Shown here piece after piece: positions 14,970-47,368 of a stretch of 64,000 nucleotides of DNA. This stretch comes from Polaromonas sp. (lineage in GTDB: Bacteria > Pseudomonadota > Gammaproteobacteria > Burkholderiales > Burkholderiaceae_C): NCBI GenBank assembly GCA_038902795.1, contig JBCKNJ010000001.1:24412-88411 (forward strand). The letters run 5' to 3'. Both the position numbers and the translations under genes were made by a program. How positions within the stretch are numbered: the stretch's first letter is position 1; the number at the start of each line of letters is the position of its first letter. The notes under the pieces were generated by a model that searched no databases, was not told the origin of the DNA, and saw only the letters and a program-made list of their open reading frames with translations.

Positions 14970-16226
14970 TTACATCGACTTCTGCCAAATAGCGGCAAAA
15001 AACCCGTCGGTCTGATGCCGGTATGGCCATAGCCGCAGGTAGGGGCCACGGCACAGTTTATCAGCATGTTCCACCCCTAGATGGGTCAATATAGGCGCTG
15101 TTTCAAGCACGTTGAAGTCTTTATTTGCATTTGAAAAAGCTTCCGCTATGGCTTCATTTTCTTCACGTAAAACACTACAGGTGGCATAAACCAGTCGCCC
15201 GCCGGGCTTTAAAAGCCGCGCTGCGCTCTGCAAAATAGCCGTTTGCTTGGCCACCAGTTCGGCAATGGCCTTGGGGTTTTGCCGCCATTTCAGGTCCGGG
15301 TTGCGCCGCAGCGTACCCAAGCCGGAGCATGGCGCATCGACCAGCACCCGATCAATCTTGCCGGCCAGGCGTTTGATGCGGTCATCACGCTCATGCGCAA
15401 TCGCCACCGGGTGAACATTTGACAAACCGCTGCGCGCCAGCCGCGGTTTAAGCGCCTCCAGCCGATGGCCCGAGGTGTCAAACGCATACAGCCGCCCGGT
15501 GCTGCGCATACTGGCACCAAGGGCCAGCGTTTTGCCGCCAGCACCGGCGCAAAAATCAACCACCATCTCGCCGCGCTTGGCATCTACCAGCAGGGCCAGC
15601 AACTGCGAGCCCTCGTCCTGCACTTCAATCGCGCCGCGTGTGAAGGCATCGAGCTTGCCCAGCTGCGATTTATCGGCCAGCCGCAAGCCCCATGGCGAAT
15701 AAGGCGTAGCCACGGTTTTCAGCCCGGCTTTTTGCAGCTCTTTTTGAATATCGGCGCGCTTGTCTTTGAGCGTGTTGACGCGCATGTCTAGGCCAGCAGG
15801 TGCATTAAGGCTTTCAACCAATGGCCAAAAGTCGTCACCCAGTTGCGCCTTCAAAGGCTCAACCAGCCACTGCGGCAGGTTGTGGCGGTGCAGCTCCATC
15901 AAGTCGGCGGGTTTGACCTGATCGCAGCGGTTCAGCCAATCGATTTCCTGATCGGTCAAAGCCGCCATCAAGAAATCGCGCGGTGCAGTAAAACCCAAAA
16001 TCGTCAGACGGCGCTCAGGCGGGCCGCTGCCGTGCTGCGCCAGATAGGTGAAGAGATTTTTTTTGCGCAGTACAGCGTAAATGGTTTCAGCCAGCGTAGC
16101 ACGCTCACGCGGGCCGAGGCGAAACTCACGGAAATAGCGCGACAGAACCATGTCTGCCGGGTGGTCAAATTTAAGAACCAGCTTGAGAAGCTCGGAACAA
16201 CTATCTAGTAAGGCTTTAGGATGCAT
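14970..16226 (-). CDS. RsmB/NOP (Sun/Fmu) family RNA m5C methyltransferase
   Basis: QDEGSQL, DFCAGAGGKT, DAPCSGLG, VYATCS, TDGFF motifs; may be a paralog rather than RsmB itself. Confidence 0.9.
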   Translation of the reverse strand: MHPKALLDSCSELLKLVLKFDHPADMVLSRYFREFRLGPRERATLAETIYAVLRKKNLFTYLAQHGSGPPERRLTILGFTAPRDFLMAALTDQEIDWLNRCDQVKPADLMELHRHNLPQWLVEPLKAQLGDDFWPLVESLNAPAGLDMRVNTLKDKRADIQKELQKAGLKTVATPYSPWGLRLADKSQLGKLDAFTRGAIEVQDEGSQLLALLVDAKRGEMVVDFCAGAGGKTLALGASMRSTGRLYAFDTSGHRLEALKPRLARSGLSNVHPVAIAHERDDRIKRLAGKIDRVLVDAPCSGLGTLRRNPDLKWRQNPKAIAELVAKQTAILQSAARLLKPGGRLVYATCSVLREENEAIAEAFSNANKDFNVLETAPILTHLGVEHADKLCRGPYLRLWPYRHQTDGFFAAIWQKSM

Positions 16227-16256
16227 AGCCCCTTATTGTCCCACTGCGCTTCTTAT

Positions 16257-16410
16257 GGGCACTTCTATAAATTACCGTTCGCCCTGAGCTTGGCCTGTCC
16301 TGAGCTTGTCGAAGGGTCGAAGGGTCTGCTCGCTAAGTGGTTGTTTTTATTAGCTAAAGGCTTCGACAGGCTCAGCCCGAACGGGGTTTGGTGAATTTAT
16401 AGAAGTGCCC
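16257..16410. mobile_element. Family A MITE shell carrying a different REP-like core (mirror 33585..33738)
   Basis: GGGCACTTCTATAAATT...AATTTATAGAAGTGCCC ends; interior CCGTTCGCCCTGAGCTT..GTCGAAGGG / CTTCGACAGGCTCAGCCCGAACGG. Confidence 0.8.
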
Positions 16411-16422
16411 TATAGTGCAACT

Positions 16423-16537
16423 ACCGCAACACGACCGCAGCACAGGCGGTTCAGTCCAACATGGTTTATCTGCCGCGATTGACGTCTTTGCTTTGTGCTG
16501 GCTTTACGGCGCGGCGGATAAACGCTGATTGTTGGGC
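16423..16537 (+). repeat. Direct repeat X copy 1 containing an attC-like hairpin (mirror 33458..33572)
   Basis: GTCCAAC (16454) ... GTTGGGC (16531) with inner arms GTTTATCTGCCGCG / CGCGGCGGATAAAC; identical to 18488..18598. Confidence 0.75.
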
Positions 16538-16576
16538 ATCACAATAGATGAGCGGGTTCCATCAAAGGAGGACTAC

Positions 16577-17566
16577 ATGCGAAACATGAGAAGGCTTGTC
16601 CTGAGAAGGGTCGCATTGACCTTTGGATTAGTGCTGGCGTCTGGTCTGGCGACGCCGCAGGAAGCCAAACTTCCGCGTGTTGGGGTACTGCTCCTTGGAG
16701 GACCAGGGCCACGCTACGACGGATTGCGGCAAGATTTTGCCCAATTGGGGTATGTCGAGGGCCGAAATATCATACTCGAGCCTCGATTTGCCCGAGGCCA
16801 GTTCGACCGAGCGCCAGCACTTGCCGCTGAACTGGTCGCCCTCAATGTCGATGTCATCGTTGCGGTGGGCGCGATAGGGGTTGGGGCTGCTCAAAAAGCA
16901 ACCACGAAAATTCCCATTGTTTTTGCGGCGGTGCTCGATCCTGTCGCCCTTGGGTACGTCGCCACGTTGGAGCGGCCCGGTGGAAATATCACGGGCATCA
17001 TCAGCTTCGATCCACAGCAAGCTACCAAACAATTCGAAATCCTCACGGAGGTGATTCCGAACCTCTCGCGCGTTGCAATTCTGAGTGATCAAGACATTCC
17101 TCGTACAGACGGCTGGAATCCGCTAGAACGGGAAAACGACACGGCGGCACGAGCGCTCGGATTACGGCCTCAGTGGCTCAGAGTGAAGGCGCCTGTTCCA
17201 GATCTCGATGCAGCCTTCGCAGCGATGCAGAGCGAACGCGCAGAGGTTCTGCTGGTACTGGAGGTGCCTGTAAACATCTTAAACTTCAAGCCAATCGCTG
17301 AGCTGGCAGCCAAGCATCGCTTGCCCACCATGTTTCCCGGCGGTTGGGAGAATCAGGGCCTGATCACTTATGGAACGAGCATCAATGACGCAGTGCCGCG
17401 TATTCCAGAGTATGTGGACAAGATTCTGAAGGGCGCCAAACCGGGCGAACTGCCGATTTCCGTCGTGGCACGGCCGGAACTCATCGTCAATCTAAAGACG
17501 GCGCGGGACATCGGCATATCCATCCCGCCCGAGCTGACGAAGCGGGCCAGCCGAGTTATTCAGTGA
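16577..17566 (+). CDS. Orphan ABC transporter substrate-binding protein
   Basis: LGYVEGRNI, TKIPIVF, DPVALGYVATLERPGGNITG, YVDKILKGAKPGELP, VNLKTA; AAGGAGG RBS before ATG 16577; no permease or ATPase adjacent. Confidence 0.88.
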   Translation: MRNMRRLVLRRVALTFGLVLASGLATPQEAKLPRVGVLLLGGPGPRYDGLRQDFAQLGYVEGRNIILEPRFARGQFDRAPALAAELVALNVDVIVAVGAIGVGAAQKATTKIPIVFAAVLDPVALGYVATLERPGGNITGIISFDPQQATKQFEILTEVIPNLSRVAILSDQDIPRTDGWNPLERENDTAARALGLRPQWLRVKAPVPDLDAAFAAMQSERAEVLLVLEVPVNILNFKPIAELAAKHRLPTMFPGGWENQGLITYGTSINDAVPRIPEYVDKILKGAKPGELPISVVARPELIVNLKTARDIGISIPPELTKRASRVIQ

Positions 17567-17589
17567 CATCAACGGGCCGCAAAAAGCAC

Positions 17590-17677
17590 GGGGTCAGGTC
17601 TTGCAATCAAGCAGCAAGCAGATCGAAATGCCGAGATCGAGCGGACTGAGGGATGTGTGACTGCAAGACCTGCCCCC
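17590..17677. repeat. GGGGTCAGG...CCTG(A/C)CCCC element Y copy 1 (mirror 32318..32405)
   Basis: GGGGTCAGGTCTTGCAATCA...TGACTGCAAGACCTGCCCCC; one mismatch seen versus 18354..18441. Confidence 0.85.
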
Positions 17678-17886
17678 ACTTGCACTCATGCCCGTTGCGG
17701 ACTTTCGAAGTCGACGGAACTGGTTTACACTCTCGGCGACTGTCTGAGCGCAGCCGCAACGCAACGTCTCTTGCTTGGGCGACTATCGGCCCAACAGCGA
17801 TCTTGTCAACGAAGTCCAATTGCGCAAGGGCTATTGTCCGAAAAACAGTCGTTCCGAGGATGTCAACTTAATAGAGGAGAACGTCA

Positions 17887-18201
17887 ATGAAGTACATGAT
17901 TAGCTGGTTTGAACGCCCGCACGGTTCGGCTACGGAGTACGAGAATGCCCAGAAACGGATACTTGAAGTGTTCAGTCAATGGAAGCCGCCCGAGAATTTC
18001 AAGATCGAGTTGTTCGTAGTGCGAGTGGGCGAGTGGGGTGGGTACATGTTGGTGGACTGCGACGATCCGTTGGCCGTTCACAAGGCCTGCTCGACCCACG
18101 CTACTTTTGAATTCCAGGTGCGAACTGTGATTGCCGTCGAGGACGCTGTCCGGGTCGAACTCGAAGCGATTGCTTGGCGCGATGGACTGAAACGCAACTG
18201 A
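17887..18201 (+). CDS. Small protein, probably DUF3303 family
   Basis: GAGGAG RBS; MKYMISW...GEWGGYMLVDCDD pattern recalled for DUF3303; followed by a terminator. Confidence 0.72.
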   Translation: MKYMISWFERPHGSATEYENAQKRILEVFSQWKPPENFKIELFVVRVGEWGGYMLVDCDDPLAVHKACSTHATFEFQVRTVIAVEDAVRVELEAIAWRDGLKRN

Positions 18202-18274
18202 CATCCGAGAGGACCACATCGCATTCACCTCGTGTGAACCGGCGACACTATCGTTGCAGCATGCGGAGATCAAG

Positions 18275-18304
18275 AAACGGCACTCAGTTTGAGTGCCGTT
18301 TTTT
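18275..18304 (+). terminator. Intrinsic terminator after the DUF3303-like gene
   Basis: AAACGGCACTCA-GTT-TGAGTGCCGTTTTTT. Confidence 0.85.
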
Positions 18305-18353
18305 GTTTCATTTTTTTTGGTGCCTTCCCTCCTCCCTTGCTCTCAGGGTCACT

Positions 18354-18441
18354 GGGGTCAGGTCTTGCAATCAAGCAGCAAGCAGATCGAAATGCCGAGA
18401 TCGAGCGGACTGAGGGATGTGTGACTGCAAGACCTGACCCC
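18354..18441. repeat. Element Y copy 2 (mirror 31554..31641)
   Basis: Direct repeat of 17590..17677. Confidence 0.85.
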
Positions 18442-18487
18442 ACTTGACAGAGGTAGGGCGATTGAATCAAATCCCTCATAATGCAAA

Positions 18488-18602
18488 ACCGCAACACGAC
18501 CGCAGCACAGGCGGTTCAGTCCAACATGGTTTATCTGCCGCGATTGACGTCTTTGCTTTGTGCTGGCTTTACGGCGCGGCGGATAAACGCTGATTGTTAG
18601 GC
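18488..18602 (+). repeat. Direct repeat X copy 2 containing an attC-like hairpin (mirror 31393..31507)
   Basis: GTCCAAC (18519) ... GTTAGGC (18596); diverges from copy 1 immediately after GTT. Confidence 0.75.
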
Positions 18603-18742
18603 GTCCAGCAAGTACACTTACGAACGCACACTTCAAAGATTACCTGCGCTTCTTCAGTCGCGGTGTTCATTGGCGTAGTTGTCATTCCAGCTGTGCTCAC
18701 CGACCCATTTCCCGGTTATTGATTTGTGAAAGAATCTGATCT

Positions 18743-19582
18743 ATGACTTCCATACTGTCGCGTGTGTTGGCGGCACTTTCCCTTGCAGTTTTGCTGAACG
18801 CTGGTGTCGCATACGCGCAAGCAATTCCAGTTAACCCCACCTACAAGGGTTGGTTCGCGTCGTCAAACCCTACGATGACATTTCTTTTTGAAGCGGCCGA
18901 GGCCAAGGCTACGCTGGTGTTTATTCCCGGCGGGGAGGGTCACCGTGGCGTCAAGCCGGAGTGGACGGCCGATCATGGCTATTTCTCGTCTTACCATTTC
19001 AACGTGATGCTTCGCAGCCTGAGTGATCCCAAGGCCACTTCAGGGCAGTTCAACGTAGTTATTTTTGACAGCCCGGCAGATTTGCCGACCGCAAACCATT
19101 GGTCAGGGGCAAGGGCAAGCACTGATCACCTCTCCCGAGTGGAAGATGTGGTTCGCTATTACAAGGAAAAATTCGGCAAGCCCGTGTGGGTGATGGGCCA
19201 CAGCATGGGCAGCATCAGCATTACGGAGCTTTACAAACGCCTCCAAGACAAAAAGAGCGAAGATCTTGTCGCGGGGCTGATATGGAGCGGTGGCATAAAC
19301 GGCACCTTCTTCAATTACGAGACCACCAAATTGCCCGTCTTGGTTCTGCACCACGAGAACGACGGATGCATTGGAACCACGCCACGCAACGCCAAGAGAA
19401 TCCATACCAGGCTGAGCGAAGCTGGCAACACGGCCACCGAATTGGTTTTCATCAAGACCGGCACGCTGTCACCCGACAGCAACAACCCGTGTCGCTCGGG
19501 TTATCACATGTATTTCGGTGCGGGTGCTGATGTTGCCAAAGTGCTGGATCAATTCATGAGCAAACATCTGGTTCCGCGCTAG
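18743..19582 (+). CDS. Secreted alpha/beta hydrolase
   Basis: Signal peptide ending AYA; GHSMG nucleophile elbow; HHENDGC and GYH motifs as candidate Asp/His. Confidence 0.85.
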   Translation: MTSILSRVLAALSLAVLLNAGVAYAQAIPVNPTYKGWFASSNPTMTFLFEAAEAKATLVFIPGGEGHRGVKPEWTADHGYFSSYHFNVMLRSLSDPKATSGQFNVVIFDSPADLPTANHWSGARASTDHLSRVEDVVRYYKEKFGKPVWVMGHSMGSISITELYKRLQDKKSEDLVAGLIWSGGINGTFFNYETTKLPVLVLHHENDGCIGTTPRNAKRIHTRLSEAGNTATELVFIKTGTLSPDSNNPCRSGYHMYFGAGADVAKVLDQFMSKHLVPR

Positions 19583-19594
19583 TGCGCTGCCAAG

Positions 19595-19655
19595 GCTTGT
19601 TGGCGTTAGGAGGATCAAAGGGGTCAGGGTCGAATTAAATGCCTAACGAACAAGC
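19595..19655. repeat. Solo GGGGTCAG unit inside a short inverted repeat
   Basis: GCTTGTTGGCGTTAGG...GGGGTCAGGGTC...CCTAACGAACAAGC. Confidence 0.55.
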
Positions 19656-19746
19656 AACTGTCTTAAAAGTCAAGTATTTTCGACCTCCCGGGTGTGAAAA
19701 TTTTCGTTCCATGGTGTGCCTGTCGTGTCACCGATAATCGCGGGTT

Positions 19747-21372
19747 ATGCCCGAATCTCTTGCCCCCTCTGAAATCGCCAAACAAGTTAAACGCCGCCGC
19801 ACGTTTGCCATCATCTCCCACCCCGATGCGGGTAAAACCACGCTGACTGAAAAGCTGCTGCTGTTCTCGGGTGCGATTCAAATTGCCGGCAGCGTGAAAG
19901 CCCGCAAGGCGGCACGCCATGCCACCAGTGACTGGATGGAAATTGAAAAGCAGCGCGGCATATCGGTCGCCTCATCGGTCATGCAGATGGAATACCGTGA
20001 CTGCGTGATTAACCTGCTCGACACCCCCGGTCACCAGGATTTTTCTGAAGACACCTACCGCGTGCTGACCGCCGTTGATGCCGCGCTGATGGTGATTGAC
20101 GCGGCCAACGGTGTCGAGCCACAAACACGCCGCCTGCTGCAGGTCTGCCGCGCCCGCAACACGCCCATTCTGACCTTCGTCAACAAGATGGACCGCGAGG
20201 TGCAGGATCCGATGAGCCTGATGGACGAAATCGAGCGCGAACTCGGCATGACCGTCGTGCCCTTCACCTGGCCGGTCGGCATGGGCAAGCTGTTCCACGG
20301 CGTCTATGACCGGCGTGAAAAACGCATGCGCGTCTTCAGCCCCGGCGAAGACAAGGCCGGCGGCGAGGACGAAATTTTGGCGGGCCTGGACAACGCCGAA
20401 GCCGCCAAACGCTTCGGTGCCGAATTCACGCAGGCCCAGGGCGAGCTGGAACTGCTCAACGGCGCTTCACCCGAGTTCAACCGCGAGGACTTCCTCGCCG
20501 GCAAACAGACCCCGATGTTTTTCGGCTCGGCCATCAACAATTTTGGCGTGCAGGAAGTGCTCGACGCGCTGGTGGACCTGGCGCCGGCGCCAGCCGAACG
20601 CGCCGCCCTGCAGCGCGTGGTGCAGCCCGAGGAAAAGAAATTCTCCGGCGTGGTGTTCAAGATTCAGGCCAACATGGACCCGGCGCACCGCGACCGCATC
20701 GCGTTTTTGCGCGTGGTCAGCGGCGAGTTCACGCGCGGTATGCGGCTCAAGGTGGTGCGCAGCGGCAAGGAGCTGCGGCCCAACACCGTGGTGAGCTTTA
20801 TGAGCCAGCGCCGCGAACTGCTCGACACCGCTTTTGCCGGCGACATCATCGGCATCCCGAACCACGGCGTGCTGCAACTCGGCGACACGCTGACTGAAGG
20901 CGAGGCGCTGCAGTTCACCGGCCTGCCATTTTTTGCGCCAGAAATGTTTCGCGCGGTTGAAGTCGCCGATCCGCTGCGCAGCAAGCAACTGCGCGCCGGC
21001 CTGACGCAGCTTGGCGAAGAAGGTGCGATTCAGGTCTTTCGGCCTATCTCTGGTTCGTTATTGCTGCTAGGCGCAGTCGGGCAGTTGCAGTTTGAAGTCG
21101 TTGCCCACAGGCTGGAGCATGAGTACGGCGTGAAGGCGCGCATCATGGCCAGTAACTTCAACCTGGCGCGCTGGGTCACCTCTGAAGACCCGAACGAGTT
21201 GAAGAAATTCATCGATGCCAACGCGCACCGTGTGGCCTTAGATGCAGTCGATGCACCTACCCTGCTGGTCGATCACAGCGCCACCCTGCGTGCAGTCGAG
21301 CAGCAGTGGCCGAAAATCAAGTTCCACGCACTGCGCGAGCATGCCGGGCTTGTGTTTCAGTCAAAAATGTAA
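19747..21372 (+). CDS. prfC: Peptide chain release factor 3
   Basis: RRTFAIISHPDAGKTT, DWMEIEKQRGISV, DTPGHQDF, NKMDR, KIQANMDPAHRDR. Confidence 0.97.
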   Translation: MPESLAPSEIAKQVKRRRTFAIISHPDAGKTTLTEKLLLFSGAIQIAGSVKARKAARHATSDWMEIEKQRGISVASSVMQMEYRDCVINLLDTPGHQDFSEDTYRVLTAVDAALMVIDAANGVEPQTRRLLQVCRARNTPILTFVNKMDREVQDPMSLMDEIERELGMTVVPFTWPVGMGKLFHGVYDRREKRMRVFSPGEDKAGGEDEILAGLDNAEAAKRFGAEFTQAQGELELLNGASPEFNREDFLAGKQTPMFFGSAINNFGVQEVLDALVDLAPAPAERAALQRVVQPEEKKFSGVVFKIQANMDPAHRDRIAFLRVVSGEFTRGMRLKVVRSGKELRPNTVVSFMSQRRELLDTAFAGDIIGIPNHGVLQLGDTLTEGEALQFTGLPFFAPEMFRAVEVADPLRSKQLRAGLTQLGEEGAIQVFRPISGSLLLLGAVGQLQFEVVAHRLEHEYGVKARIMASNFNLARWVTSEDPNELKKFIDANAHRVALDAVDAPTLLVDHSATLRAVEQQWPKIKFHALREHAGLVFQSKM

Positions 21373-25127: not shown

Positions 25128-25315
25128 GGCCGCAGCCGCGCGTGTCGTAGCGGTACAAATGGTGGCGGGCACTGAGCGATTCGAGCCAGGGACCCCACAC
25201 CGGAGTCTACTACTCCGGCGCCATTCGCGGTGGCGACGACGCCTGCGCGCCAGCGGCAGCGGTCGTGTGAAGAAACCCCTGGCCCGCGAGCGTGAGCCGG
25301 AACGAGCGAGGCAGC

Positions 25316-28027
25316 TCAGGCCTTCAGCGCATGCAGCGCCGCGCGAACGATGGCTGCCGCATCCACGCCGAAGAAATCGCGCAGCGCAGCCCGCGTGTCG
25401 CTGCGGCCAAAGCCGTCGGTGCCCAGCGTCAGGTAGCTGCGCCCTGGCGGCAAAAAGGCGCGAATGCTTTCTGGCACTGCGCGCACATAGTCGGTGGCCG
25501 CGATGATGGGGCCTTCGCTGCTGCTCAATTGCATTTGAACGAACGAGTCGCTCCTTACTTCGTCGCTTGCTTCGCCGTTCAATGCACGCTGCTGGCAGGC
25601 TGCGCCATCGCGTGCGAGTTCGCTCCAGCTGGTCACGCTGTACACGCTCGCTTCAATGCCCAGCTCGCCAAGTTGCACTGCGGCCTTGATGATTTCCGTC
25701 AAAATCGCTCCAGAGCCCATTAAAGTGACTTTTTGAACCGTTTTTGCTGCTGTTTTAGGGCTCTTTGGGCTGTTATCCAATGAATATGGGCGTGACCAGC
25801 TACTGAATTTATAGCAACCTCGAATCATCTCAAGCTCGCTTCCGGCCTGCAAATCGGGCTGCGCGTAGTTCTCGTTCATCATCGTGACGTAGTAAAAAAC
25901 GTCTTTTTGCTCCACCATCATTTCGCGCATACCGTGGTCAATGATGACGGCCAGCTCGCAGGCAAACGCCGGGTCGTAGGCCTTGCAGTTGGGAATGGTG
26001 GCGGCTGTCAAGTGGCTGCTGCCGTCCTGGTGCTGCAGGCCTTCGCCACTCAGCGTGGTGCGGCCCGATGTGGCACCGAGTAAAAAGCCACGCGCACGCT
26101 GGTCAGCGGCGGCCCAGATCTGGTCGCCGACGCGCTGGAAGCCAAACATCGAGTAAAACATATAGAAAGGCAGCATCGCCAACCCATGCACGCTGTAGCT
26201 GGTGGCCGCGGCCGTCCAGCTGGCCAACGCGCCGGCCTCGCTGATGCCTTCTTCTAGAATCTGGCCATCAAGCGCTTCCCGGTAACTCAGCAACGAGCCA
26301 ATGTCTTCGGGTGCATAACGCTGGCCAACGCTGGAATAAATACCGACCTGCTTGAACAAATTGGCCATGCCGAAGGTGCGCGCTTCATCGGCCACGATGG
26401 GTACGATTTTGGGGCCGAGTGCGCCATCTTTCAAAAGCCCGCCCAGCATACGCACAAAGGCCATGGTGGTGCTCATCTCTTTGCCATTGGCCTGCAATGC
26501 AAAACCAGCGTACGCGGGCAACGCCGGTATGGCGATGACTTCAGCAACGGTTTCGCGCTTGGGCAGGTAGCCGCCCAAGGCCTTGCGTCTGGCGTGCAGG
26601 TACTGCATCTCGGGGCTCTCGGGCGCTGGCTTGTAGAAGGCGATTTGCTTGGCCTGCTCGTCTGTCAAAGGCAGGTTGAAGCGGTTTCTGAATTCGATCA
26701 GATCAGTCTCAGCAAACTTTTTTTGCGAGTGCGTCGTCATCTTGCCTTGGCCCGCACTGCCCATGCCGTAGCCTTTTTTGGTGTGCGCCAGTATCACCGT
26801 TGGCTGGCCTTTGTGCGCTGCTGCTGCGGCGTAGGCGGCGTGGATTTTTACCAAGTCATGGCCACCGCGTTTGAGGCGGTCAATTTGCTCGTCGGTCATG
26901 CCTTGCGCCAGACGCGCCAGCTCGGGGTTTTGGCCGAAGAAGTTGTCGCGGTTAAAGCGCCCGTCCTTGGCGGCAAAGGTCTGCATCTGGCCGTCGACCG
27001 TGTTGGCAAAGGCTCTAGCCAATGCGCCACTCACGTCGCGGGCAAACAGGCCGTCCCAGTCGCTGCCCCAGATCAGCTTGATGACGTTCCAGCCTGCGCC
27101 TGCGAACAGCTTTTCAAGCTCGTCGATGATGCGGCCATTGCCGCGTACCGGGCCATCAAGCCGCTGCAAATTACAGTTGACCACCCAGACCAGGTTGTCC
27201 AGGCCTTCACGCGCGGCCAGCGTCAGGGCGCACATGGATTCGGGCTCGTCCATTTCGCCATCGCCAAAAACGCCCCACACCTTGCGGCCCGTGCAGTCGA
27301 GCAAGTTGCGATGCGTGAGGTAGCGCATGAAGCGCGCGTGGTAAATCGAGCTGATCGGGCCAATGCCCATGGAGCCGGTGGGGAACTGCCAGAAGTCGGG
27401 CATCAAATACGGATGACAGTAGCTACACAAACCTTGCGCGCCATCTTTGGCGGTGAGTTCCTGGCGAAAGCAGGCCAAGTCTTTTTCTTGCAACCGACCT
27501 TCGAGGTAAGCACGCGCATACACGCCGGGTGAGCTGTGCGGCTGGAAGAACACCAGGTCGCCTCGGTGCTGGCCTTGCCCCGTGCCTTCGCGGGCATGAA
27601 AGAAATGGTTAAAACCAGTCTCAAACAAGTCTGCCGCACTCGCATAGCTGGCGATGTGGCCGCCGAGTTCTGCCGAGCCGCCGGTCTCGACCTGATTGGC
27701 ACGCACCACCATGGCCAGTGCGTTCCAGCGCATCAGCGAGGCCAGGCGTTCTTCCAGCGCCAGATCGCCGGGGAACACCGGCTGCTGATCGACCGCAATC
27801 GTGTTCAAGTAGGGCGTTGCAAGCTCGGGTTTCCAGCCTATGTGCTGTTCGCGCGCCAGCCGTGCCAGCTCATCAAGTAGGTAGCGCGCGCGGGCCGGGC
27901 CTTGCGCCGCCGCCAGCGCGACAAAAGCCTCGCGCCATTCGGCGGTTTCTTGCGGGTCAGGATCAGCAAAATTTTCAGATGAAAGCGCTGTATGGGCGAG
28001 GTGGTGGTGGGCAGTGGAATCATTCAT
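25316..28027 (-). CDS. mdeB: 2-oxoacid dehydrogenase E1, MdeB-type (mirror copy)
   Basis: Identical protein to 21968..24679. Confidence 0.85.
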   Translation of the reverse strand: MNDSTAHHHLAHTALSSENFADPDPQETAEWREAFVALAAAQGPARARYLLDELARLAREQHIGWKPELATPYLNTIAVDQQPVFPGDLALEERLASLMRWNALAMVVRANQVETGGSAELGGHIASYASAADLFETGFNHFFHAREGTGQGQHRGDLVFFQPHSSPGVYARAYLEGRLQEKDLACFRQELTAKDGAQGLCSYCHPYLMPDFWQFPTGSMGIGPISSIYHARFMRYLTHRNLLDCTGRKVWGVFGDGEMDEPESMCALTLAAREGLDNLVWVVNCNLQRLDGPVRGNGRIIDELEKLFAGAGWNVIKLIWGSDWDGLFARDVSGALARAFANTVDGQMQTFAAKDGRFNRDNFFGQNPELARLAQGMTDEQIDRLKRGGHDLVKIHAAYAAAAAHKGQPTVILAHTKKGYGMGSAGQGKMTTHSQKKFAETDLIEFRNRFNLPLTDEQAKQIAFYKPAPESPEMQYLHARRKALGGYLPKRETVAEVIAIPALPAYAGFALQANGKEMSTTMAFVRMLGGLLKDGALGPKIVPIVADEARTFGMANLFKQVGIYSSVGQRYAPEDIGSLLSYREALDGQILEEGISEAGALASWTAAATSYSVHGLAMLPFYMFYSMFGFQRVGDQIWAAADQRARGFLLGATSGRTTLSGEGLQHQDGSSHLTAATIPNCKAYDPAFACELAVIIDHGMREMMVEQKDVFYYVTMMNENYAQPDLQAGSELEMIRGCYKFSSWSRPYSLDNSPKSPKTAAKTVQKVTLMGSGAILTEIIKAAVQLGELGIEASVYSVTSWSELARDGAACQQRALNGEASDEVRSDSFVQMQLSSSEGPIIAATDYVRAVPESIRAFLPPGRSYLTLGTDGFGRSDTRAALRDFFGVDAAAIVRAALHALKA

Positions 28028-28133
28028 GATGGCTACGACTTTACGCAAACCAGCTCAAAAGGTGCTGCTTTAATATGTGGCTATTATTTTTATATTCAGC
28101 ATAAAATTCTGAAAATAACAGATTTTACGGACT

Positions 28134-28601
28134 ATGAAACTTGATAACCTTGATTTAAAGATTCTTGCCGAACTTCAGCGTGATGGCTCGCTGTCCAACG
28201 TCGAGTTGGCCCGGCGTGTGCATTTAAGCCCCTCGCCGTGTCTGGTGCGGGTCAAGGCGCTGGAGGCCGCCAAAGTCATTGACCGCTACGTCGCCATTGC
28301 TAACGCGGCGGCGCTGGGCCTGGGCTTGAGTGTGTTCATCTCGATCAGCCTGCGTTCGCAAAACAAGGAGTCGCTGGCGGAGTTTGAGCGGCGCATTGCC
28401 GAGCATGACGAGGTGATGGAGTGTTATTTGATGACCGGCGACAGCGACTACCTGATTCGCGTTGCCGTCGCCGACATCGCCGCACTGGAGAAATTCATCC
28501 TCGAGCAGCTCACGTCGATTCCGGGCATCGAAAAAATCCGCTCCAGCTTTGCGCTCAAGCAGGTGCGCTACAAGACCGCACTGCCGCTACCTGTTTTGTA
28601 G
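28134..28601 (+). CDS. Lrp/AsnC regulator (mirror copy)
   Basis: Identical protein to 21394..21861. Confidence 0.93.
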   Translation: MKLDNLDLKILAELQRDGSLSNVELARRVHLSPSPCLVRVKALEAAKVIDRYVAIANAAALGLGLSVFISISLRSQNKESLAEFERRIAEHDEVMECYLMTGDSDYLIRVAVADIAALEKFILEQLTSIPGIEKIRSSFALKQVRYKTALPLPVL

Positions 28602-28622
28602 CTGTTGGGCACTTCTAGAAAA

Positions 28623-30248
28623 TTACATTTTTGACTGAAACACAAGCCCGGCATGCTCGCGCAGTGCGTGGAACTTGATTTTCGGCCACTGCTGCTCGAC
28701 TGCACGCAGGGTGGCGCTGTGATCGACCAGCAGGGTAGGTGCATCGACTGCATCTAAGGCCACACGGTGCGCGTTGGCATCGATGAATTTCTTCAACTCG
28801 TTCGGGTCTTCAGAGGTGACCCAGCGCGCCAGGTTGAAGTTACTGGCCATGATGCGCGCCTTCACGCCGTACTCATGCTCCAGCCTGTGGGCAACGACTT
28901 CAAACTGCAACTGCCCGACTGCGCCTAGCAGCAATAACGAACCAGAGATAGGCCGAAAGACCTGAATCGCACCTTCTTCGCCAAGCTGCGTCAGGCCGGC
29001 GCGCAGTTGCTTGCTGCGCAGCGGATCGGCGACTTCAACCGCGCGAAACATTTCTGGCGCAAAAAATGGCAGGCCGGTGAACTGCAGCGCCTCGCCTTCA
29101 GTCAGCGTGTCGCCGAGTTGCAGCACGCCGTGGTTCGGGATGCCGATGATGTCGCCGGCAAAAGCGGTGTCGAGCAGTTCGCGGCGCTGGCTCATAAAGC
29201 TCACCACGGTGTTGGGCCGCAGCTCCTTGCCGCTGCGCACCACCTTGAGCCGCATACCGCGCGTGAACTCGCCGCTGACCACGCGCAAAAACGCGATGCG
29301 GTCGCGGTGCGCCGGGTCCATGTTGGCCTGAATCTTGAACACCACGCCGGAGAATTTCTTTTCCTCGGGCTGCACCACGCGCTGCAGGGCGGCGCGTTCG
29401 GCTGGCGCCGGCGCCAGGTCCACCAGCGCGTCGAGCACTTCCTGCACGCCAAAATTGTTGATGGCCGAGCCGAAAAACATCGGGGTCTGTTTGCCGGCGA
29501 GGAAGTCCTCGCGGTTGAACTCGGGTGAAGCGCCGTTGAGCAGTTCCAGCTCGCCCTGGGCCTGCGTGAATTCGGCACCGAAGCGTTTGGCGGCTTCGGC
29601 GTTGTCCAGGCCCGCCAAAATTTCGTCCTCGCCGCCGGCCTTGTCTTCGCCGGGGCTGAAGACGCGCATGCGTTTTTCACGCCGGTCATAGACGCCGTGG
29701 AACAGCTTGCCCATGCCGACCGGCCAGGTGAAGGGCACGACGGTCATGCCGAGTTCGCGCTCGATTTCGTCCATCAGGCTCATCGGATCCTGCACCTCGC
29801 GGTCCATCTTGTTGACGAAGGTCAGAATGGGCGTGTTGCGGGCGCGGCAGACCTGCAGCAGGCGGCGTGTTTGTGGCTCGACACCGTTGGCCGCGTCAAT
29901 CACCATCAGCGCGGCATCAACGGCGGTCAGCACGCGGTAGGTGTCTTCAGAAAAATCCTGGTGACCGGGGGTGTCGAGCAGGTTAATCACGCAGTCACGG
30001 TATTCCATCTGCATGACCGATGAGGCGACCGATATGCCGCGCTGCTTTTCAATTTCCATCCAGTCACTGGTGGCATGGCGTGCCGCCTTGCGGGCTTTCA
30101 CGCTGCCGGCAATTTGAATCGCACCCGAGAACAGCAGCAGCTTTTCAGTCAGCGTGGTTTTACCCGCATCGGGGTGGGAGATGATGGCAAACGTGCGGCG
30201 GCGTTTAACTTGTTTGGCGATTTCAGAGGGGGCAAGAGATTCGGGCAT
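28623..30248 (-). CDS. prfC: Peptide chain release factor 3 (mirror copy)
   Basis: Identical protein to 19747..21372. Confidence 0.97.
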   Translation of the reverse strand: MPESLAPSEIAKQVKRRRTFAIISHPDAGKTTLTEKLLLFSGAIQIAGSVKARKAARHATSDWMEIEKQRGISVASSVMQMEYRDCVINLLDTPGHQDFSEDTYRVLTAVDAALMVIDAANGVEPQTRRLLQVCRARNTPILTFVNKMDREVQDPMSLMDEIERELGMTVVPFTWPVGMGKLFHGVYDRREKRMRVFSPGEDKAGGEDEILAGLDNAEAAKRFGAEFTQAQGELELLNGASPEFNREDFLAGKQTPMFFGSAINNFGVQEVLDALVDLAPAPAERAALQRVVQPEEKKFSGVVFKIQANMDPAHRDRIAFLRVVSGEFTRGMRLKVVRSGKELRPNTVVSFMSQRRELLDTAFAGDIIGIPNHGVLQLGDTLTEGEALQFTGLPFFAPEMFRAVEVADPLRSKQLRAGLTQLGEEGAIQVFRPISGSLLLLGAVGQLQFEVVAHRLEHEYGVKARIMASNFNLARWVTSEDPNELKKFIDANAHRVALDAVDAPTLLVDHSATLRAVEQQWPKIKFHALREHAGLVFQSKM

Positions 30249-30412
30249 AACCCGCGATTATCGGTGACACGACAGGCACACCATGGAACGAAAATTTTCA
30301 CACCCGGGAGGTCGAAAATACTTGACTTTTAAGACAGTTGCTTGTTCGTTAGGCATTTAATTCGACCCTGACCCCTTTGATCCTCCTAACGCCAACAAGC
30401 CTTGGCAGCGCA

Positions 30413-31252
30413 CTAGCGCGGAACCAGATGTTTGCTCATGAATTGATCCAGCACTTTGGCAACATCAGCACCCGCACCGAAATACATGTGATAACCCGAG
30501 CGACACGGGTTGTTGCTGTCGGGTGACAGCGTGCCGGTCTTGATGAAAACCAATTCGGTGGCCGTGTTGCCAGCTTCGCTCAGCCTGGTATGGATTCTCT
30601 TGGCGTTGCGTGGCGTGGTTCCAATGCATCCGTCGTTCTCGTGGTGCAGAACCAAGACGGGCAATTTGGTGGTCTCGTAATTGAAGAAGGTGCCGTTTAT
30701 GCCACCGCTCCATATCAGCCCCGCGACAAGATCTTCGCTCTTTTTGTCTTGGAGGCGTTTGTAAAGCTCCGTAATGCTGATGCTGCCCATGCTGTGGCCC
30801 ATCACCCACACGGGCTTGCCGAATTTTTCCTTGTAATAGCGAACCACATCTTCCACTCGGGAGAGGTGATCAGTGCTTGCCCTTGCCCCTGACCAATGGT
30901 TTGCGGTCGGCAAATCTGCCGGGCTGTCAAAAATAACTACGTTGAACTGCCCTGAAGTGGCCTTGGGATCACTCAGGCTGCGAAGCATCACGTTGAAATG
31001 GTAAGACGAGAAATAGCCATGATCGGCCGTCCACTCCGGCTTGACGCCACGGTGACCCTCCCCGCCGGGAATAAACACCAGCGTAGCCTTGGCCTCGGCC
31101 GCTTCAAAAAGAAATGTCATCGTAGGGTTTGACGACGCGAACCAACCCTTGTAGGTGGGGTTAACTGGAATTGCTTGCGCGTATGCGACACCAGCGTTCA
31201 GCAAAACTGCAAGGGAAAGTGCCGCCAACACACGCGACAGTATGGAAGTCAT
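30413..31252 (-). CDS. Secreted alpha/beta hydrolase (mirror copy)
   Basis: Identical protein to 18743..19582. Confidence 0.85.
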   Translation of the reverse strand: MTSILSRVLAALSLAVLLNAGVAYAQAIPVNPTYKGWFASSNPTMTFLFEAAEAKATLVFIPGGEGHRGVKPEWTADHGYFSSYHFNVMLRSLSDPKATSGQFNVVIFDSPADLPTANHWSGARASTDHLSRVEDVVRYYKEKFGKPVWVMGHSMGSISITELYKRLQDKKSEDLVAGLIWSGGINGTFFNYETTKLPVLVLHHENDGCIGTTPRNAKRIHTRLSEAGNTATELVFIKTGTLSPDSNNPCRSGYHMYFGAGADVAKVLDQFMSKHLVPR

Positions 31253-31793
31253 AGATCAGATTCTTTCACAAATCAATAACCGGGAAATGGGTCGGTGAGC
31301 ACAGCTGGAATGACAACTACGCCAATGAACACCGCGACTGAAGAAGCGCAGGTAATCTTTGAAGTGTGCGTTCGTAAGTGTACTTGCTGGACGCCTAACA
31401 ATCAGCGTTTATCCGCCGCGCCGTAAAGCCAGCACAAAGCAAAGACGTCAATCGCGGCAGATAAACCATGTTGGACTGAACCGCCTGTGCTGCGGTCGTG
31501 TTGCGGTTTTGCATTATGAGGGATTTGATTCAATCGCCCTACCTCTGTCAAGTGGGGTCAGGTCTTGCAGTCACACATCCCTCAGTCCGCTCGATCTCGG
31601 CATTTCGATCTGCTTGCTGCTTGATTGCAAGACCTGACCCCAGTGACCCTGAGAGCAAGGGAGGAGGGAAGGCACCAAAAAAAATGAAACAAAAAACGGC
31701 ACTCAAACTGAGTGCCGTTTCTTGATCTCCGCATGCTGCAACGATAGTGTCGCCGGTTCACACGAGGTGAATGCGATGTGGTCCTCTCGGATG

Positions 31794-32108
31794 TCAGTTG
31801 CGTTTCAGTCCATCGCGCCAAGCAATCGCTTCGAGTTCGACCCGGACAGCGTCCTCGACGGCAATCACAGTTCGCACCTGGAATTCAAAAGTAGCGTGGG
31901 TCGAGCAGGCCTTGTGAACGGCCAACGGATCGTCGCAGTCCACCAACATGTACCCACCCCACTCGCCCACTCGCACTACGAACAACTCGATCTTGAAATT
32001 CTCGGGCGGCTTCCATTGACTGAACACTTCAAGTATCCGTTTCTGGGCATTCTCGTACTCCGTAGCCGAACCGTGCGGGCGTTCAAACCAGCTAATCATG
32101 TACTTCAT
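31794..32108 (-). CDS. DUF3303-like protein (mirror copy)
   Basis: Identical protein to 17887..18201. Confidence 0.72.
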   Translation of the reverse strand: MKYMISWFERPHGSATEYENAQKRILEVFSQWKPPENFKIELFVVRVGEWGGYMLVDCDDPLAVHKACSTHATFEFQVRTVIAVEDAVRVELEAIAWRDGLKRN

Positions 32109-32428
32109 TGACGTTCTCCTCTATTAAGTTGACATCCTCGGAACGACTGTTTTTCGGACAATAGCCCTTGCGCAATTGGACTTCGTTGACAAGATCGCTG
32201 TTGGGCCGATAGTCGCCCAAGCAAGAGACGTTGCGTTGCGGCTGCGCTCAGACAGTCGCCGAGAGTGTAAACCAGTTCCGTCGACTTCGAAAGTCCGCAA
32301 CGGGCATGAGTGCAAGTGGGGGCAGGTCTTGCAGTCACACATCCCTCAGTCCGCTCGATCTCGGCATTTCGATCTGCTTGCTGCTTGATTGCAAGACCTG
32401 ACCCCGTGCTTTTTGCGGCCCGTTGATG

Positions 32429-33418
32429 TCACTGAATAACTCGGCTGGCCCGCTTCGTCAGCTCGGGCGGGATGGATATGCCGATGTCCCGCGCCGTCTT
32501 TAGATTGACGATGAGTTCCGGCCGTGCCACGACGGAAATCGGCAGTTCGCCCGGTTTGGCGCCCTTCAGAATCTTGTCCACATACTCTGGAATACGCGGC
32601 ACTGCGTCATTGATGCTCGTTCCATAAGTGATCAGGCCCTGATTCTCCCAACCGCCGGGAAACATGGTGGGCAAGCGATGCTTGGCTGCCAGCTCAGCGA
32701 TTGGCTTGAAGTTTAAGATGTTTACAGGCACCTCCAGTACCAGCAGAACCTCTGCGCGTTCGCTCTGCATCGCTGCGAAGGCTGCATCGAGATCTGGAAC
32801 AGGCGCCTTCACTCTGAGCCACTGAGGCCGTAATCCGAGCGCTCGTGCCGCCGTGTCGTTTTCCCGTTCTAGCGGATTCCAGCCGTCTGTACGAGGAATG
32901 TCTTGATCACTCAGAATTGCAACGCGCGAGAGGTTCGGAATCACCTCCGTGAGGATTTCGAATTGTTTGGTAGCTTGCTGTGGATCGAAGCTGATGATGC
33001 CCGTGATATTTCCACCGGGCCGCTCCAACGTGGCGACGTACCCAAGGGCGACAGGATCGAGCACCGCCGCAAAAACAATGGGAATTTTCGTGGTTGCTTT
33101 TTGAGCAGCCCCAACCCCTATCGCGCCCACCGCAACGATGACATCGACATTGAGGGCGACCAGTTCAGCGGCAAGTGCTGGCGCTCGGTCGAACTGGCCT
33201 CGGGCAAATCGAGGCTCGAGTATGATATTTCGGCCCTCGACATACCCCAATTGGGCAAAATCTTGCCGCAATCCGTCGTAGCGTGGCCCTGGTCCTCCAA
33301 GGAGCAGTACCCCAACACGCGGAAGTTTGGCTTCCTGCGGCGTCGCCAGACCAGACGCCAGCACTAATCCAAAGGTCAATGCGACCCTTCTCAGGACAAG
33401 CCTTCTCATGTTTCGCAT
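32429..33418 (-). CDS. ABC substrate-binding protein (mirror copy)
   Basis: Identical protein to 16577..17566. Confidence 0.88.
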   Translation of the reverse strand: MRNMRRLVLRRVALTFGLVLASGLATPQEAKLPRVGVLLLGGPGPRYDGLRQDFAQLGYVEGRNIILEPRFARGQFDRAPALAAELVALNVDVIVAVGAIGVGAAQKATTKIPIVFAAVLDPVALGYVATLERPGGNITGIISFDPQQATKQFEILTEVIPNLSRVAILSDQDIPRTDGWNPLERENDTAARALGLRPQWLRVKAPVPDLDAAFAAMQSERAEVLLVLEVPVNILNFKPIAELAAKHRLPTMFPGGWENQGLITYGTSINDAVPRIPEYVDKILKGAKPGELPISVVARPELIVNLKTARDIGISIPPELTKRASRVIQ

Positions 33419-33768
33419 GTAGTCCTCCTTTGATGGAACCCGCTCATCTATTGTGATGCCCAACAATCAGCGTTTATCCGCCGCGCCGTAAAGCCAGCAC
33501 AAAGCAAAGACGTCAATCGCGGCAGATAAACCATGTTGGACTGAACCGCCTGTGCTGCGGTCGTGTTGCGGTAGTTGCACTATAGGGCACTTCTATAAAT
33601 TCACCAAACCCCGTTCGGGCTGAGCCTGTCGAAGCCTTTAGCTAATAAAAACAACCACTTAGCGAGCAGACCCTTCGACCCTTCGACAAGCTCAGGACAG
33701 GCCAAGCTCAGGGCGAACGGTAATTTATAGAAGTGCCCATAAGAAGCGCAGTGGGACAATAAGGGGCT

Positions 33769-35025
33769 ATGCATCCTAAAGCCTTACTAGATAGTTGTTC
33801 CGAGCTTCTCAAGCTGGTTCTTAAATTTGACCACCCGGCAGACATGGTTCTGTCGCGCTATTTCCGTGAGTTTCGCCTCGGCCCGCGTGAGCGTGCTACG
33901 CTGGCTGAAACCATTTACGCTGTACTGCGCAAAAAAAATCTCTTCACCTATCTGGCGCAGCACGGCAGCGGCCCGCCTGAGCGCCGTCTGACGATTTTGG
34001 GTTTTACTGCACCGCGCGATTTCTTGATGGCGGCTTTGACCGATCAGGAAATCGATTGGCTGAACCGCTGCGATCAGGTCAAACCCGCCGACTTGATGGA
34101 GCTGCACCGCCACAACCTGCCGCAGTGGCTGGTTGAGCCTTTGAAGGCGCAACTGGGTGACGACTTTTGGCCATTGGTTGAAAGCCTTAATGCACCTGCT
34201 GGCCTAGACATGCGCGTCAACACGCTCAAAGACAAGCGCGCCGATATTCAAAAAGAGCTGCAAAAAGCCGGGCTGAAAACCGTGGCTACGCCTTATTCGC
34301 CATGGGGCTTGCGGCTGGCCGATAAATCGCAGCTGGGCAAGCTCGATGCCTTCACACGCGGCGCGATTGAAGTGCAGGACGAGGGCTCGCAGTTGCTGGC
34401 CCTGCTGGTAGATGCCAAGCGCGGCGAGATGGTGGTTGATTTTTGCGCCGGTGCTGGCGGCAAAACGCTGGCCCTTGGTGCCAGTATGCGCAGCACCGGG
34501 CGGCTGTATGCGTTTGACACCTCGGGCCATCGGCTGGAGGCGCTTAAACCGCGGCTGGCGCGCAGCGGTTTGTCAAATGTTCACCCGGTGGCGATTGCGC
34601 ATGAGCGTGATGACCGCATCAAACGCCTGGCCGGCAAGATTGATCGGGTGCTGGTCGATGCGCCATGCTCCGGCTTGGGTACGCTGCGGCGCAACCCGGA
34701 CCTGAAATGGCGGCAAAACCCCAAGGCCATTGCCGAACTGGTGGCCAAGCAAACGGCTATTTTGCAGAGCGCAGCGCGGCTTTTAAAGCCCGGCGGGCGA
34801 CTGGTTTATGCCACCTGTAGTGTTTTACGTGAAGAAAATGAAGCCATAGCGGAAGCTTTTTCAAATGCAAATAAAGACTTCAACGTGCTTGAAACAGCGC
34901 CTATATTGACCCATCTAGGGGTGGAACATGCTGATAAACTGTGCCGTGGCCCCTACCTGCGGCTATGGCCATACCGGCATCAGACCGACGGGTTTTTTGC
35001 CGCTATTTGGCAGAAGTCGATGTAA
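33769..35025 (+). CDS. RsmB/NOP family methyltransferase (mirror copy)
   Basis: Identical protein to 14970..16226. Confidence 0.9.
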   Translation: MHPKALLDSCSELLKLVLKFDHPADMVLSRYFREFRLGPRERATLAETIYAVLRKKNLFTYLAQHGSGPPERRLTILGFTAPRDFLMAALTDQEIDWLNRCDQVKPADLMELHRHNLPQWLVEPLKAQLGDDFWPLVESLNAPAGLDMRVNTLKDKRADIQKELQKAGLKTVATPYSPWGLRLADKSQLGKLDAFTRGAIEVQDEGSQLLALLVDAKRGEMVVDFCAGAGGKTLALGASMRSTGRLYAFDTSGHRLEALKPRLARSGLSNVHPVAIAHERDDRIKRLAGKIDRVLVDAPCSGLGTLRRNPDLKWRQNPKAIAELVAKQTAILQSAARLLKPGGRLVYATCSVLREENEAIAEAFSNANKDFNVLETAPILTHLGVEHADKLCRGPYLRLWPYRHQTDGFFAAIWQKSM

Positions 35026-35149
35026 TTTTTTGAGGGCCTATCAGGGCTATGTTTTTCAGACTGACTCGGTTACAATTGGCGACATTCAAACGCAGTTGCA
35101 TGGCGCTATTTTGGCGGGCGGCTTGAGGCAGATTAATAAAAGGACTTTT

Positions 35150-36352: not shown

Positions 36353-36550
36353 AGTCTTTGCACGAAAGCACCAGACATTAAAAAAAACCCGCTATCGAGC
36401 GGGTTTTTTAATGTGCAGCTTGAGGCTGCAAAGTCACAGCTAAATTATTCCAATCCGCATTAAAAACGATAACTGCGTTGCTTCGCTTTGCCGTGCTACA
36501 GCACTGTCAGCAGCTTCGCGCCTTGTTCTCATTTCTAATGCGAATTGGAA

Positions 36551-36718
36551 TTACTTCAGCTTGATTTCCTTGTATTCCACATGCTTGCGTGCTTTAGGAT
36601 CAAATTTCATGATCAGCATTTTGTCAGGCGTGGTTTTTTTGTTCTTGGTGGTCGTGTAGAAGTGACCCGTGCCGGCAGTTGATTCCAGCTTGATTTTTTC
36701 GCGTCCGCCTTTAGCCAT
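36551..36718 (-). CDS. rpmG: 50S ribosomal protein L33 (mirror copy)
   Basis: Reverse complement of 13277..13444. Confidence 0.96.
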
Positions 36719-36784
36719 GATATTTCCTAGTCAGTTGGGGACAGAGCTTGACGCTTTGCGCTGGTGGTCAGTCCCACAAAAAAA

Positions 36785-37279: not shown

Positions 37280-38227
<948 letters not shown>

Positions 38228-40879: not shown

Positions 40880-40913
40880 CGACTAGGGCCACACGCCGCA
40901 TCACACTACATTT

Positions 40914-47355: not shown

Positions 47356-47368
47356 GCAAAGCAGCCGC

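What the first reader, a model, noticed from the sequence alone, without database searches (positions are those of the whole stretch)
16423..19655. Integrase-less array of attC-like sites heading accessory genes between the methylase gene and prfC
Seen: two copies of a 111-bp identical repeat (16423..16533, 18488..18598), each holding an 84-bp hairpin RYYYAAC...GTTRRRY. The copies diverge immediately after GTT (GTTGGGC vs GTTAGGC), and each is followed by a co-oriented accessory gene (SBP; alpha/beta hydrolase). Reverse complements of the two core sites occur downstream of those genes (GCCCAAC 17789, GCCTAAC 19641). Established: integron cassettes recombine at G|TT and a cassette's inverse core site complements its leading core site; attC clusters without integrase (CALINs) exist. 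Caveats: spacer geometry (3 and 7 nt) is non-canonical, and the downstream sites could belong to other hairpins. Inference: a decayed or atypical cassette-capture system, interleaved with GGGGTCAG elements; best candidate for an undescribed gene-acquisition system here.
Basis: partly seen in the sequence, partly recalled or inferred. Interest (0 to 1): 0.72.

Follow-up and report, generated by a model that had tools for sequence, protein, structure and literature searches.

The report
Orphan transposon ends framing integron cassettes
The repeated hairpin is the left-behind tip of a two-gene rolling-circle jumping element that sits at the gene-cassette junctions of integrons; dozens of such tips head different genes in this bacterial lineage, most likely as relics, though they may still act as docking points for new genes.

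Summary
The 111-bp repeat X and its GTT boundary are real, but X is not the attC of a new capture system. It is the 3' end of a 2.6-kb IS91-family element carrying a tyrosine recombinase. A 95.5% identical copy lies just below an IS91 transposase in a relative, and intact elements end in X homologs, one exactly between two class 1 integron cassettes.

G000 holds 7 orphan copies and five relatives 55 matches, against 2 left ends; 58 of 66 ends head a co-oriented gene. The SBP gene is a likely cassette. GCCCAAC at 17789 is probably unrelated. GCCTAAC at 19641 starts a second repeat W: an IS110 right end plus a tail like that of a second IS91 family, facing backwards. The genome has two IntI genes elsewhere.

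The rsmB-prfC interval is nearly empty in other genus members; three close genomes share the W|prfC junction with different cargo.

Best reading: a wrecked cassette island, cargo likely swapped by homologous recombination. Open: orphan ends as live docking sites (about 0.3). This scan found the intact element family eight times on other DNA.

The parts
14970..16226 (-). rsmB-family methyltransferase, left core-genome flank
   Evidence: Pfam PF01189; lies within 1.5 kb upstream of prfC in 27 of 28 other genus loci
16257..16410 (.). MITE-like element with 17-bp terminal inverted repeats; abuts and truncates the IS91 end
   Evidence: coordinates; many TIR copies in G000; in G140 a MITE with the same kind of TIR sits inside the uncut end
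16411..16533 (+). Orphan 3' end no. 1 of the IS91+recombinase element (family A); X = 16423-16533, terminal inverted repeat 16446-16460, hairpin 16454-16533, G|TT at 16531-16533
   Evidence: 95.5% identical to the end about 245 bp below an IS91 transposase in G141:C38; aligns with ends of four intact elements
16577..17566 (+). ABC substrate-binding protein gene; likely integron cassette starting at G|TTGGGC
   Evidence: PF04392; soil-run contigs match from 16531 and 16533, one with an attC-like 3' arm in place of X
17590..17677 (.). GGGGTCAG inverted-repeat (REP-like) element, copy 1; holds a 13-nt piece that is part of a canonical attC arm in G140
17789..17795 (+). GCCCAAC; probably part of the DUF3303 upstream module, not the SBP inverse core
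17887..18201 (+). DUF3303 gene
   Evidence: PF11746
18354..18441 (.). GGGGTCAG inverted-repeat element, copy 2 (99% identical to copy 1)
18447..18598 (+). Orphan 3' end no. 2 of family A (154 bp kept); X = 18488-18598, G|TT at 18596-18598
18743..19582 (+). Alpha/beta hydrolase gene; cassette status unproven
   Evidence: PF12697; homologs at 34-48% in 8 of 203 genus genomes; the 7 whose flanks were printed show no cassette context by eye
19595..19640 (.). Left arm of a hairpin that pairs with the start of W, plus half of a GGGGTCAG repeat
19641..19654 (-). Start of repeat W: RYYYAAC plus a 7-nt tail (CT-TRTTC on the minus strand) like the right-end tail of a second IS91+recombinase family (B), facing backwards
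19655..19722 (-). IS110-family right end with the last codons of its transposase; truncated
   Evidence: longer copies continue into PF02371/NF033542 sequence
19747..21372 (+). prfC (release factor 3), right core-genome flank
   Evidence: Pfam RF3_C; same W|prfC junction in G139 and G140
25128..49994 (-). Exact mirror copy of window 1-24867; likely amplification or assembly artefact

Best explanation
X is the orphaned 3' end of a two-gene IS91-family element (tyrosine recombinase plus HUH transposase) that sits at G|TT junctions of integron cassettes, and the locus is likely a decayed cassette island whose cargo was likely exchanged by homologous recombination between the many dispersed X and W remnants. 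Shown: the identity of X, the IS110 identity of W, the GTT boundary, and different cargo between the same flanks in three genomes. Inferred: the intact element is copied as a single-stranded circle whose joined ends would fold into an attC-like stem, and is inserted like a cassette at attI or attC. A related family B inserts backwards at a cassette's inverse core, and an IS110 then lands in that tail at a CT core. Deletions, many at MITE or REP ends, remove the element bodies and spare the tips next to useful genes. The 110-150-bp X and 80-bp W remnants then act as homology arms. Cassettes themselves would have been made and moved by IntI, present in trans.
For: X homologs lie about 250-300 bp below 'site-specific integrase + IS91 family transposase' on plasmids NZ_AP018145 and NZ_MN657148 (PF00589+PF13495, PF04986+PF14319, NF033538). 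In NZ_AP018145 the 2584-bp element starts at the G|TT of the aac(6')-IIa attC and aadA4 starts after its own G|TT. Same layout in G030:C19 and G050:C46. A 95.5% copy lies below an IS91 transposase in G141:C38. Of 7 left-end flanks, 1 is an attC and 4 resemble the G000 attI sites by eye; in G139:C13 a 5'-truncated intI abuts an X end. 50 of 52 X copies stop short of the transposase, at variable points, 11 of them at a MITE end. W runs into an IS110 transposase C-terminus; 23 of 27 W face a gene end; family B ends have the same tail and 6 of 10 face a gene end. rsmB lies next to prfC in 27 of 28 other loci; G139 and G140 share the W|prfC junction with other cargo. Joined ends of 3 intact elements fold with z -3.2 to -5.7.
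Against: Right ends outnumber left ends 55 to 2 in five relatives and 7 to 0 in G000, more than unbiased deletion would give. The same truncated left junction recurs with different genes after GTT (5 rows in G177, 3 rows across G139 and G142), which a live site would also explain. No full-length IS110 and no IS110 left end was found, so the target of W (family B end, or a free hairpin as at G000:C50) is not settled. No recombination was observed, and no recombinant tract inside W could be read. G000 is 73% complete.
Confidence: 0.63

Rival explanations
1. Same identity for X, but the orphan ends are still working docking sites: IntI in trans, or the element's recombinase, inserts cassettes at X's G|TT, so the element seeds dispersed integrase-less platforms; X and the backward tail of W may form a frame in which cassettes are swapped site-specifically.
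For: Right-to-left end excess of 55 to 2; identical truncation points with different cassettes; two frames on G177:C190 with the same long left part hold different cassettes exactly from GTT to AAC, core and inverse core matching 10 of 11 and 11 of 11; 18 of 28 W have X within 3 kb upstream, and 9 of the other 10 had under 3 kb to look at; the 3' arm is less variable (2.2% stem, 0.6% spacer) than loop and leader (5.8% each) in 48 copies; IntI inserts cassettes at plain GWT sites (10.1101/2022.09.11.507474, passages).
Against: Homologous recombination within X and W gives the same pattern. Conservation near GTT may be inherited from the active element and is inflated by local alignment. The 3/7 spacer geometry is not canonical attC. 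No promoter was scored in the G141 end and both window copies are cut below the CATAAT seen upstream in longer copies. W keeps only 7 nt of its hairpin. No family A recombinase or transposase was found in G000.
Confidence: 0.28
2. One reading: X is an atypical attC of an undescribed, integrase-free capture system, with GCCCAAC 17789 and GCCTAAC 19641 closing two cassettes.
For: GTT boundary and RRRY consensus; hairpin; free hairpins related to X do follow gene ends at G000:C50 and a REP end at G139:C85.
Against: X is continuous with an IS91 transposase; IntI is present; 17789 is not at the SBP cassette end; 19641 is fused to an IS110 end.
Confidence: 0.05
3. A local tandem duplication or an amplification chimera made the repeat.
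For: The window carries a 24.9-kb exact mirror, so this assembly has artefacts.
Against: X occurs on 5 contigs of G000, in 5 of 5 close relatives, in metagenome contigs and on finished plasmids.
Confidence: 0.03
4. X is the left end of the same IS110 as W, fused to the remainder of an attC (my first hypothesis).
For: W, an IS110 fragment and X are joined at G000:C4 and in two metagenome contigs.
Against: Sequence upstream of X leads into an IS91 transposase, and X homologs end intact IS91 elements.
Confidence: 0.01

Closest known systems
IS91-family elements with an upstream tyrosine recombinase (ISShvi3 and kin; the ISfinder grouping is recalled, not from a call)
   Same: Recombinase then IS91 transposase, about 2.6 kb. 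[quoted passage not shown]
   Different: Here only orphan 3' tips remain, in tens of copies. I did not compare sequences with ISShvi3; its supplementary figure S2 was not seen.
Canonical IS91, IS801, IS1294 and ISCR1
   Same: HUH transposase family; target next to the right end; bottom-strand ssDNA circle is the functional intermediate (PMC13181058, passages). ISCR1 ends drive downstream genes (PMC6218425, abstract only).
   Different: Their targets are tetranucleotides (CTTG, GTTC); here the flank is GTT followed by RRRY, the ends are 15-bp inverted repeats around an attC-like stem, and a recombinase gene is carried.
CALIN / SALIN and attG insertions
   Same: Cassettes away from intI; insertion at G|TT (10.1101/2022.09.11.507474, passages). 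G000:C76 is a CALIN headed by X.
   Different: No intact attC remains in the window; the repeated unit is an IS end that precedes the gene.
IS1111-attC group (ISKpn4, ISPst6)
   Same: IS110-superfamily elements at cassette recombination sites (PMC11187229, passages). Degenerate footprints at array ends are recalled from Tetu and Holmes 2008, which I could not read.
   Different: W's transposase stop lies about 15 bp from the end, so there is no long downstream non-coding region; it is IS110-type (52% to a 315-aa IS110), and it sits in an IS91-like tail, not shown in a canonical attC.

Membership tests
attC site (for X) | RYYYAAC ... GTTRRRY boxes on a hairpin | tested here: met
attC site (for X) | 5-nt and about 6-nt spacers with an extra base in L'' (canonical geometry, from knowledge; seen in G000:C76) | tested here: not met
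   3 and 7 nt, no bulge in the 5' arm
attC site (for X) | lies downstream of its cassette gene | tested here: not met
   upstream sequence is IS91 3' region in the copies examined; exceptions are the free hairpins at G000:C50 and G139:C85
attC site (for X) | recombined by IntI; scored by the IntegronFinder model | not testable with these tools
   Rfam search gave only 3 chance miRNA hits; no attC model or assay on hand
IS91 + tyrosine recombinase element (for X) | IS91 transposase upstream of the end | tested here: met
   G141:C38, G030:C19, G050:C46, two plasmids; absent beside the window copies
IS91 + tyrosine recombinase element (for X) | recombinase gene upstream of the transposase, not an IntI | tested here: met
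   PF00589+PF13495; 136.5 bits on TIGR02249 against a cut-off of 265; tested on the NZ_MN657148 copy
IS91 + tyrosine recombinase element (for X) | left end complementary to the right-end repeat | tested here: met
   4 of 4 intact elements (for three of them); no left end found in G000
IS91 + tyrosine recombinase element (for X) | same group as ISShvi3 / ISAzo26 by sequence | not tested
   no reference sequences fetched
Integron gene cassette (SBP gene) | begins at G|TTRRRY and occurs behind other att sites | tested here: met
   contigs in two soil runs begin matching at 16531 and 16533, one behind an attC-like arm; single contigs each
Integron gene cassette (SBP gene) | own inverse core and attC after the gene | tested here: inconclusive
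   none left in the window; contigs diverge at 17566-17583
Integron gene cassette (hydrolase gene) | core and inverse core match; found as cassette elsewhere | tested here: inconclusive
   GTTAGGC matches but is the commonest core (17 of 46); homologs not in cassettes
CALIN | two or more attC sites, no intI nearby | tested here: not met
   no canonical attC in the window in a home-made scan; no PF00589 match on C1
IS110 family (for W) | PF02371 transposase C-terminus | tested here: met
IS110 family (for W) | DEDD domain, upstream non-coding RNA, left end | tested here: inconclusive
   no full-length copy among 13 genome and 12 metagenome hits
IS1111-attC group (for W) | long non-coding region downstream of tnp | tested here: not met
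   stop codon about 15 bp from the end (criterion from PMC11187229)

The most novel reading that the evidence does not exclude
A cassette-mimicking IS91 element seeds the chromosome with its own attC-like end, and these orphan ends go on working as dispersed, integrase-free docking sites. Paired with the backward tail of a sister element they form a frame in which whole cassettes are swapped from GTT to AAC, giving a ten-site distributed integron built from transposon tips.
Probability: 0.28. Interest if true: 0.75.

Novelty: new variant of a known kind. Interest (0 to 1): 0.5.

Why it matters
It explains a class of 'attC-like sites with odd spacers' as transposon ends, which matters for anyone counting CALINs and SALINs. 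It shows three layers of parasites on one recombination site: a forward IS91+recombinase element, a backward sister family and an IS110. If the orphan ends still take up cassettes, it offers a testable route by which cassette arrays arise far from intI. An intact relative already sits inside a class 1 integron on a clinical E. coli plasmid, so the family is not only environmental.

Tried and rejected
Rfam: 3 chance hits. X as IS110 left end: rejected. Full-length IS110: not found in G000, 5 relatives (their other IS110s do not carry this end), 401 order genomes, plasmids, 13 genome and 12 metagenome pattern hits (5 of the 12 carry this end, 7 are another IS110). X motif in viral contigs: 0 hits; 9 hits of the free-hairpin motif looked like chance. 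X motif across the class: 2 of 400 other genomes. Core versus inverse-core match over the first 4 variable bases gave no signal (34 of 56, shuffle 33.7, p 0.51); only the 8-base test did (67 of 112, shuffle 54.6, p 0.0014; 14 pairs, not independent). Promoter scan of the G141 end: 0 sites. SBP DNA: not found in plasmids or 300 order genomes searched. No RNA holder listed. The hydrolase gene had no cover in the runs laid. Contig joints from the end of X to the start of W in 3 of 4 runs of one study have sides under 30 nt and unknown letters between; not used as evidence of an empty site. intI was not found upstream of the left end in the 4 left-end loci tested. Paper searches for a description of orphan ends or of this element's mechanism gave only the ISShvi3 remark; most subscription journals and TnPedia are not covered. 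Rows dropped: 1 of 67 A ends and 2 of 12 B ends had under 300 nt downstream; one B hit (G000:C31) is probably a false pattern match.
Full report
Observation. The two 111-bp copies, the hairpin and the GTT boundary are as described. The window's first 24.9 kb are mirrored exactly, so only one pair counts. X is not local: G000 has 7 distinct copies on 5 contigs and five close relatives give 55 matches. Related records are titled Polaromonas sp.. G000 encodes two integron integrases with attI-like sites and canonical attC sites elsewhere.

The GTT boundary is general. Among 46 distinct X ends the next four bases are A or G in 41, G in 36, G in 33 and C in 31. Of 66 ends with enough sequence (distant homologs included), 58 are followed by a co-oriented ORF, 1 by a converging one and 7 by neither. 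At G000:C76, X heads a complete cassette with matching core and inverse core, a canonical attC and a second cassette.

What X is. Distant searches placed X homologs just below a recombinase plus IS91 transposase pair on two finished plasmids. In NZ_AP018145 the element runs from the G|TT of one cassette's attC to the G|TT that opens aadA4. Three intact elements measure 2584-2589 bp and a fourth is cut by a contig end at 2489; all start with a 15-bp repeat complementary to the one in X. A copy 95.5% identical to the window's X lies about 245 bp below an IS91 transposase in G141:C38. Joined in silico, the ends fold into a long stem, with lower energy on the bottom strand in 3 of 3 though not always a lower z; the bottom strand is the functional circle of IS91 (PMC13181058, passages). 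One stem position shows T-A, C-G, A-T and T-G pairs across homologs, with two mismatched rows. Of 7 left-end flanks one is an attC and four resemble attI by eye. So family A behaves like a cassette; its own mechanism is inferred, not shown.

X copies are orphans. 50 of 52 stop before the transposase, keeping 38-332 bp (two of the short ones end at contig edges), 11 of them cut at a MITE end as in window copy 1. Left ends are rare: 2 in the five relatives, none in G000. G000, 73% complete, showed no family A genes beyond one weak 22-residue Y2 match.

What lies at 19641. GCCTAAC begins a second repeat, W, found in 7 of 204 genus genomes. Longer copies run into the C-terminus of an IS110 transposase on the minus strand. 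All 27 distinct copies start at an AAC, nearly all RYYYAAC-GAAYAAG, and 23 face a gene end; metagenome hits found without the flank in the pattern show the same flank in 5 of 5 copies of this IS110, two of them one sequence. The 7-nt tail equals the right-end tail of a second IS91+recombinase family, B, which faces a gene end in 6 of 10 cases. The IS110 left end was never seen, so a free hairpin of the C50 type remains a possible target.

The cargo. The SBP gene is a likely cassette: soil-run contigs match it from 16531 and 16533, one behind an attC-like arm, and stop at 17566-17583. That puts GCCCAAC 17789 outside it. The hydrolase gene is unproven as a cassette. In 14 X-W pairs the core matches the inverse core beyond chance over 8 bases but not over 4; 18 of 28 W have X within 3 kb upstream.

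The locus. rsmB lies next to prfC in 27 of 28 other genus loci. G140 has the same rsmB (97%) and prfC (94%) flanks and the same W|prfC junction, with two X copies and wholly different genes; G139 shares the junction with a third gene before W. On G177:C190 two frames with the same long left part hold different cassettes from GTT to AAC.

Mechanism. The simplest account is insertion of family A, family B and IS110 at cassette junctions, erosion by deletion, and cargo exchange by homologous recombination between the remnants (0.63). The strong excess of right ends and the reuse of identical truncation points leave open that orphan ends are live sites (0.28); IntI is known to use plain GWT sites (10.1101/2022.09.11.507474, passages). 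Against that: non-canonical geometry, no scored promoter, and a 7-nt stump on the W side. The identity of X is above 0.9 under both readings.

Comparison. Closest are the recombinase-carrying IS91 elements such as ISShvi3, noted beside an attC in Shewanella (PMC9229058, passages; supplement not seen). X fails attC membership on geometry and position, and W fails IS1111-attC membership on its short 3' end (PMC11187229, passages). Papers seen only as abstract or outline: PMC6218425, PMC12901181. Eight paper searches found no account of dispersed orphan ends. The scan's own notes describe the intact family on eight other genomes and returned nothing for this sequence, this genome or orphan ends.

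Verdict. Real feature, partly right reading. New variant of a known kind; interest 0.5.

Noticed in passing
window 1-24867 and 25128-49994: Exact 24,867-bp inverted duplication with a 260-nt spacer; likely an amplification or assembly artefact.
   Followed up: partly
L022 720-1727 and L023 739-1740 (G000:C28, C45): Two integron integrases, 72% identical, each with an attI-like site (5-nt spacer) and a first cassette.
   Followed up: partly
G000:C50 about 11970-12060; L160 (G139:C85): Free hairpins with 7/7 spacers whose 5' arm equals the backward family B tail and whose 3' arm is family A-like; they could be deletion hybrids through a shared 9-mer.
   Followed up: partly
L147, L148, L152; G000:C3, C4, C8: Second IS91+recombinase family (B), about 31% identical in its proteins to family A, with a short hairpin end; 25 end matches in five relatives.
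   Followed up: partly
G000:C82 2584-2728, C42, L160, L161: IS91 ends are joined to GGGGTCAG repeats at a GTT; G000 has two Y1 (PF01797) transposases.
   Followed up: partly
L004 296-594 (G008:C113): About 300-bp mini-element with both family A ends and no genes.
   Followed up: no
G000:C4 28669-28966; L101, L107: W, an IS110 fragment and X fused into one spacer, found with different genes on both sides.
   Followed up: partly
L007, L009, L015, L016: TTGACT-like and TACAAT boxes point toward GTT in distant X homologs; seen by eye only.
   Followed up: no
L123 3506-6089 (NZ_AP018145): Intact family A element between aac(6')-IIa and aadA4 in a class 1 integron of a clinical E. coli plasmid.
   Followed up: partly
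window 16227-16256 versus L204-L228: Most relatives appear to carry a short ORF ending just before prfC; it seems lost here.
   Followed up: no
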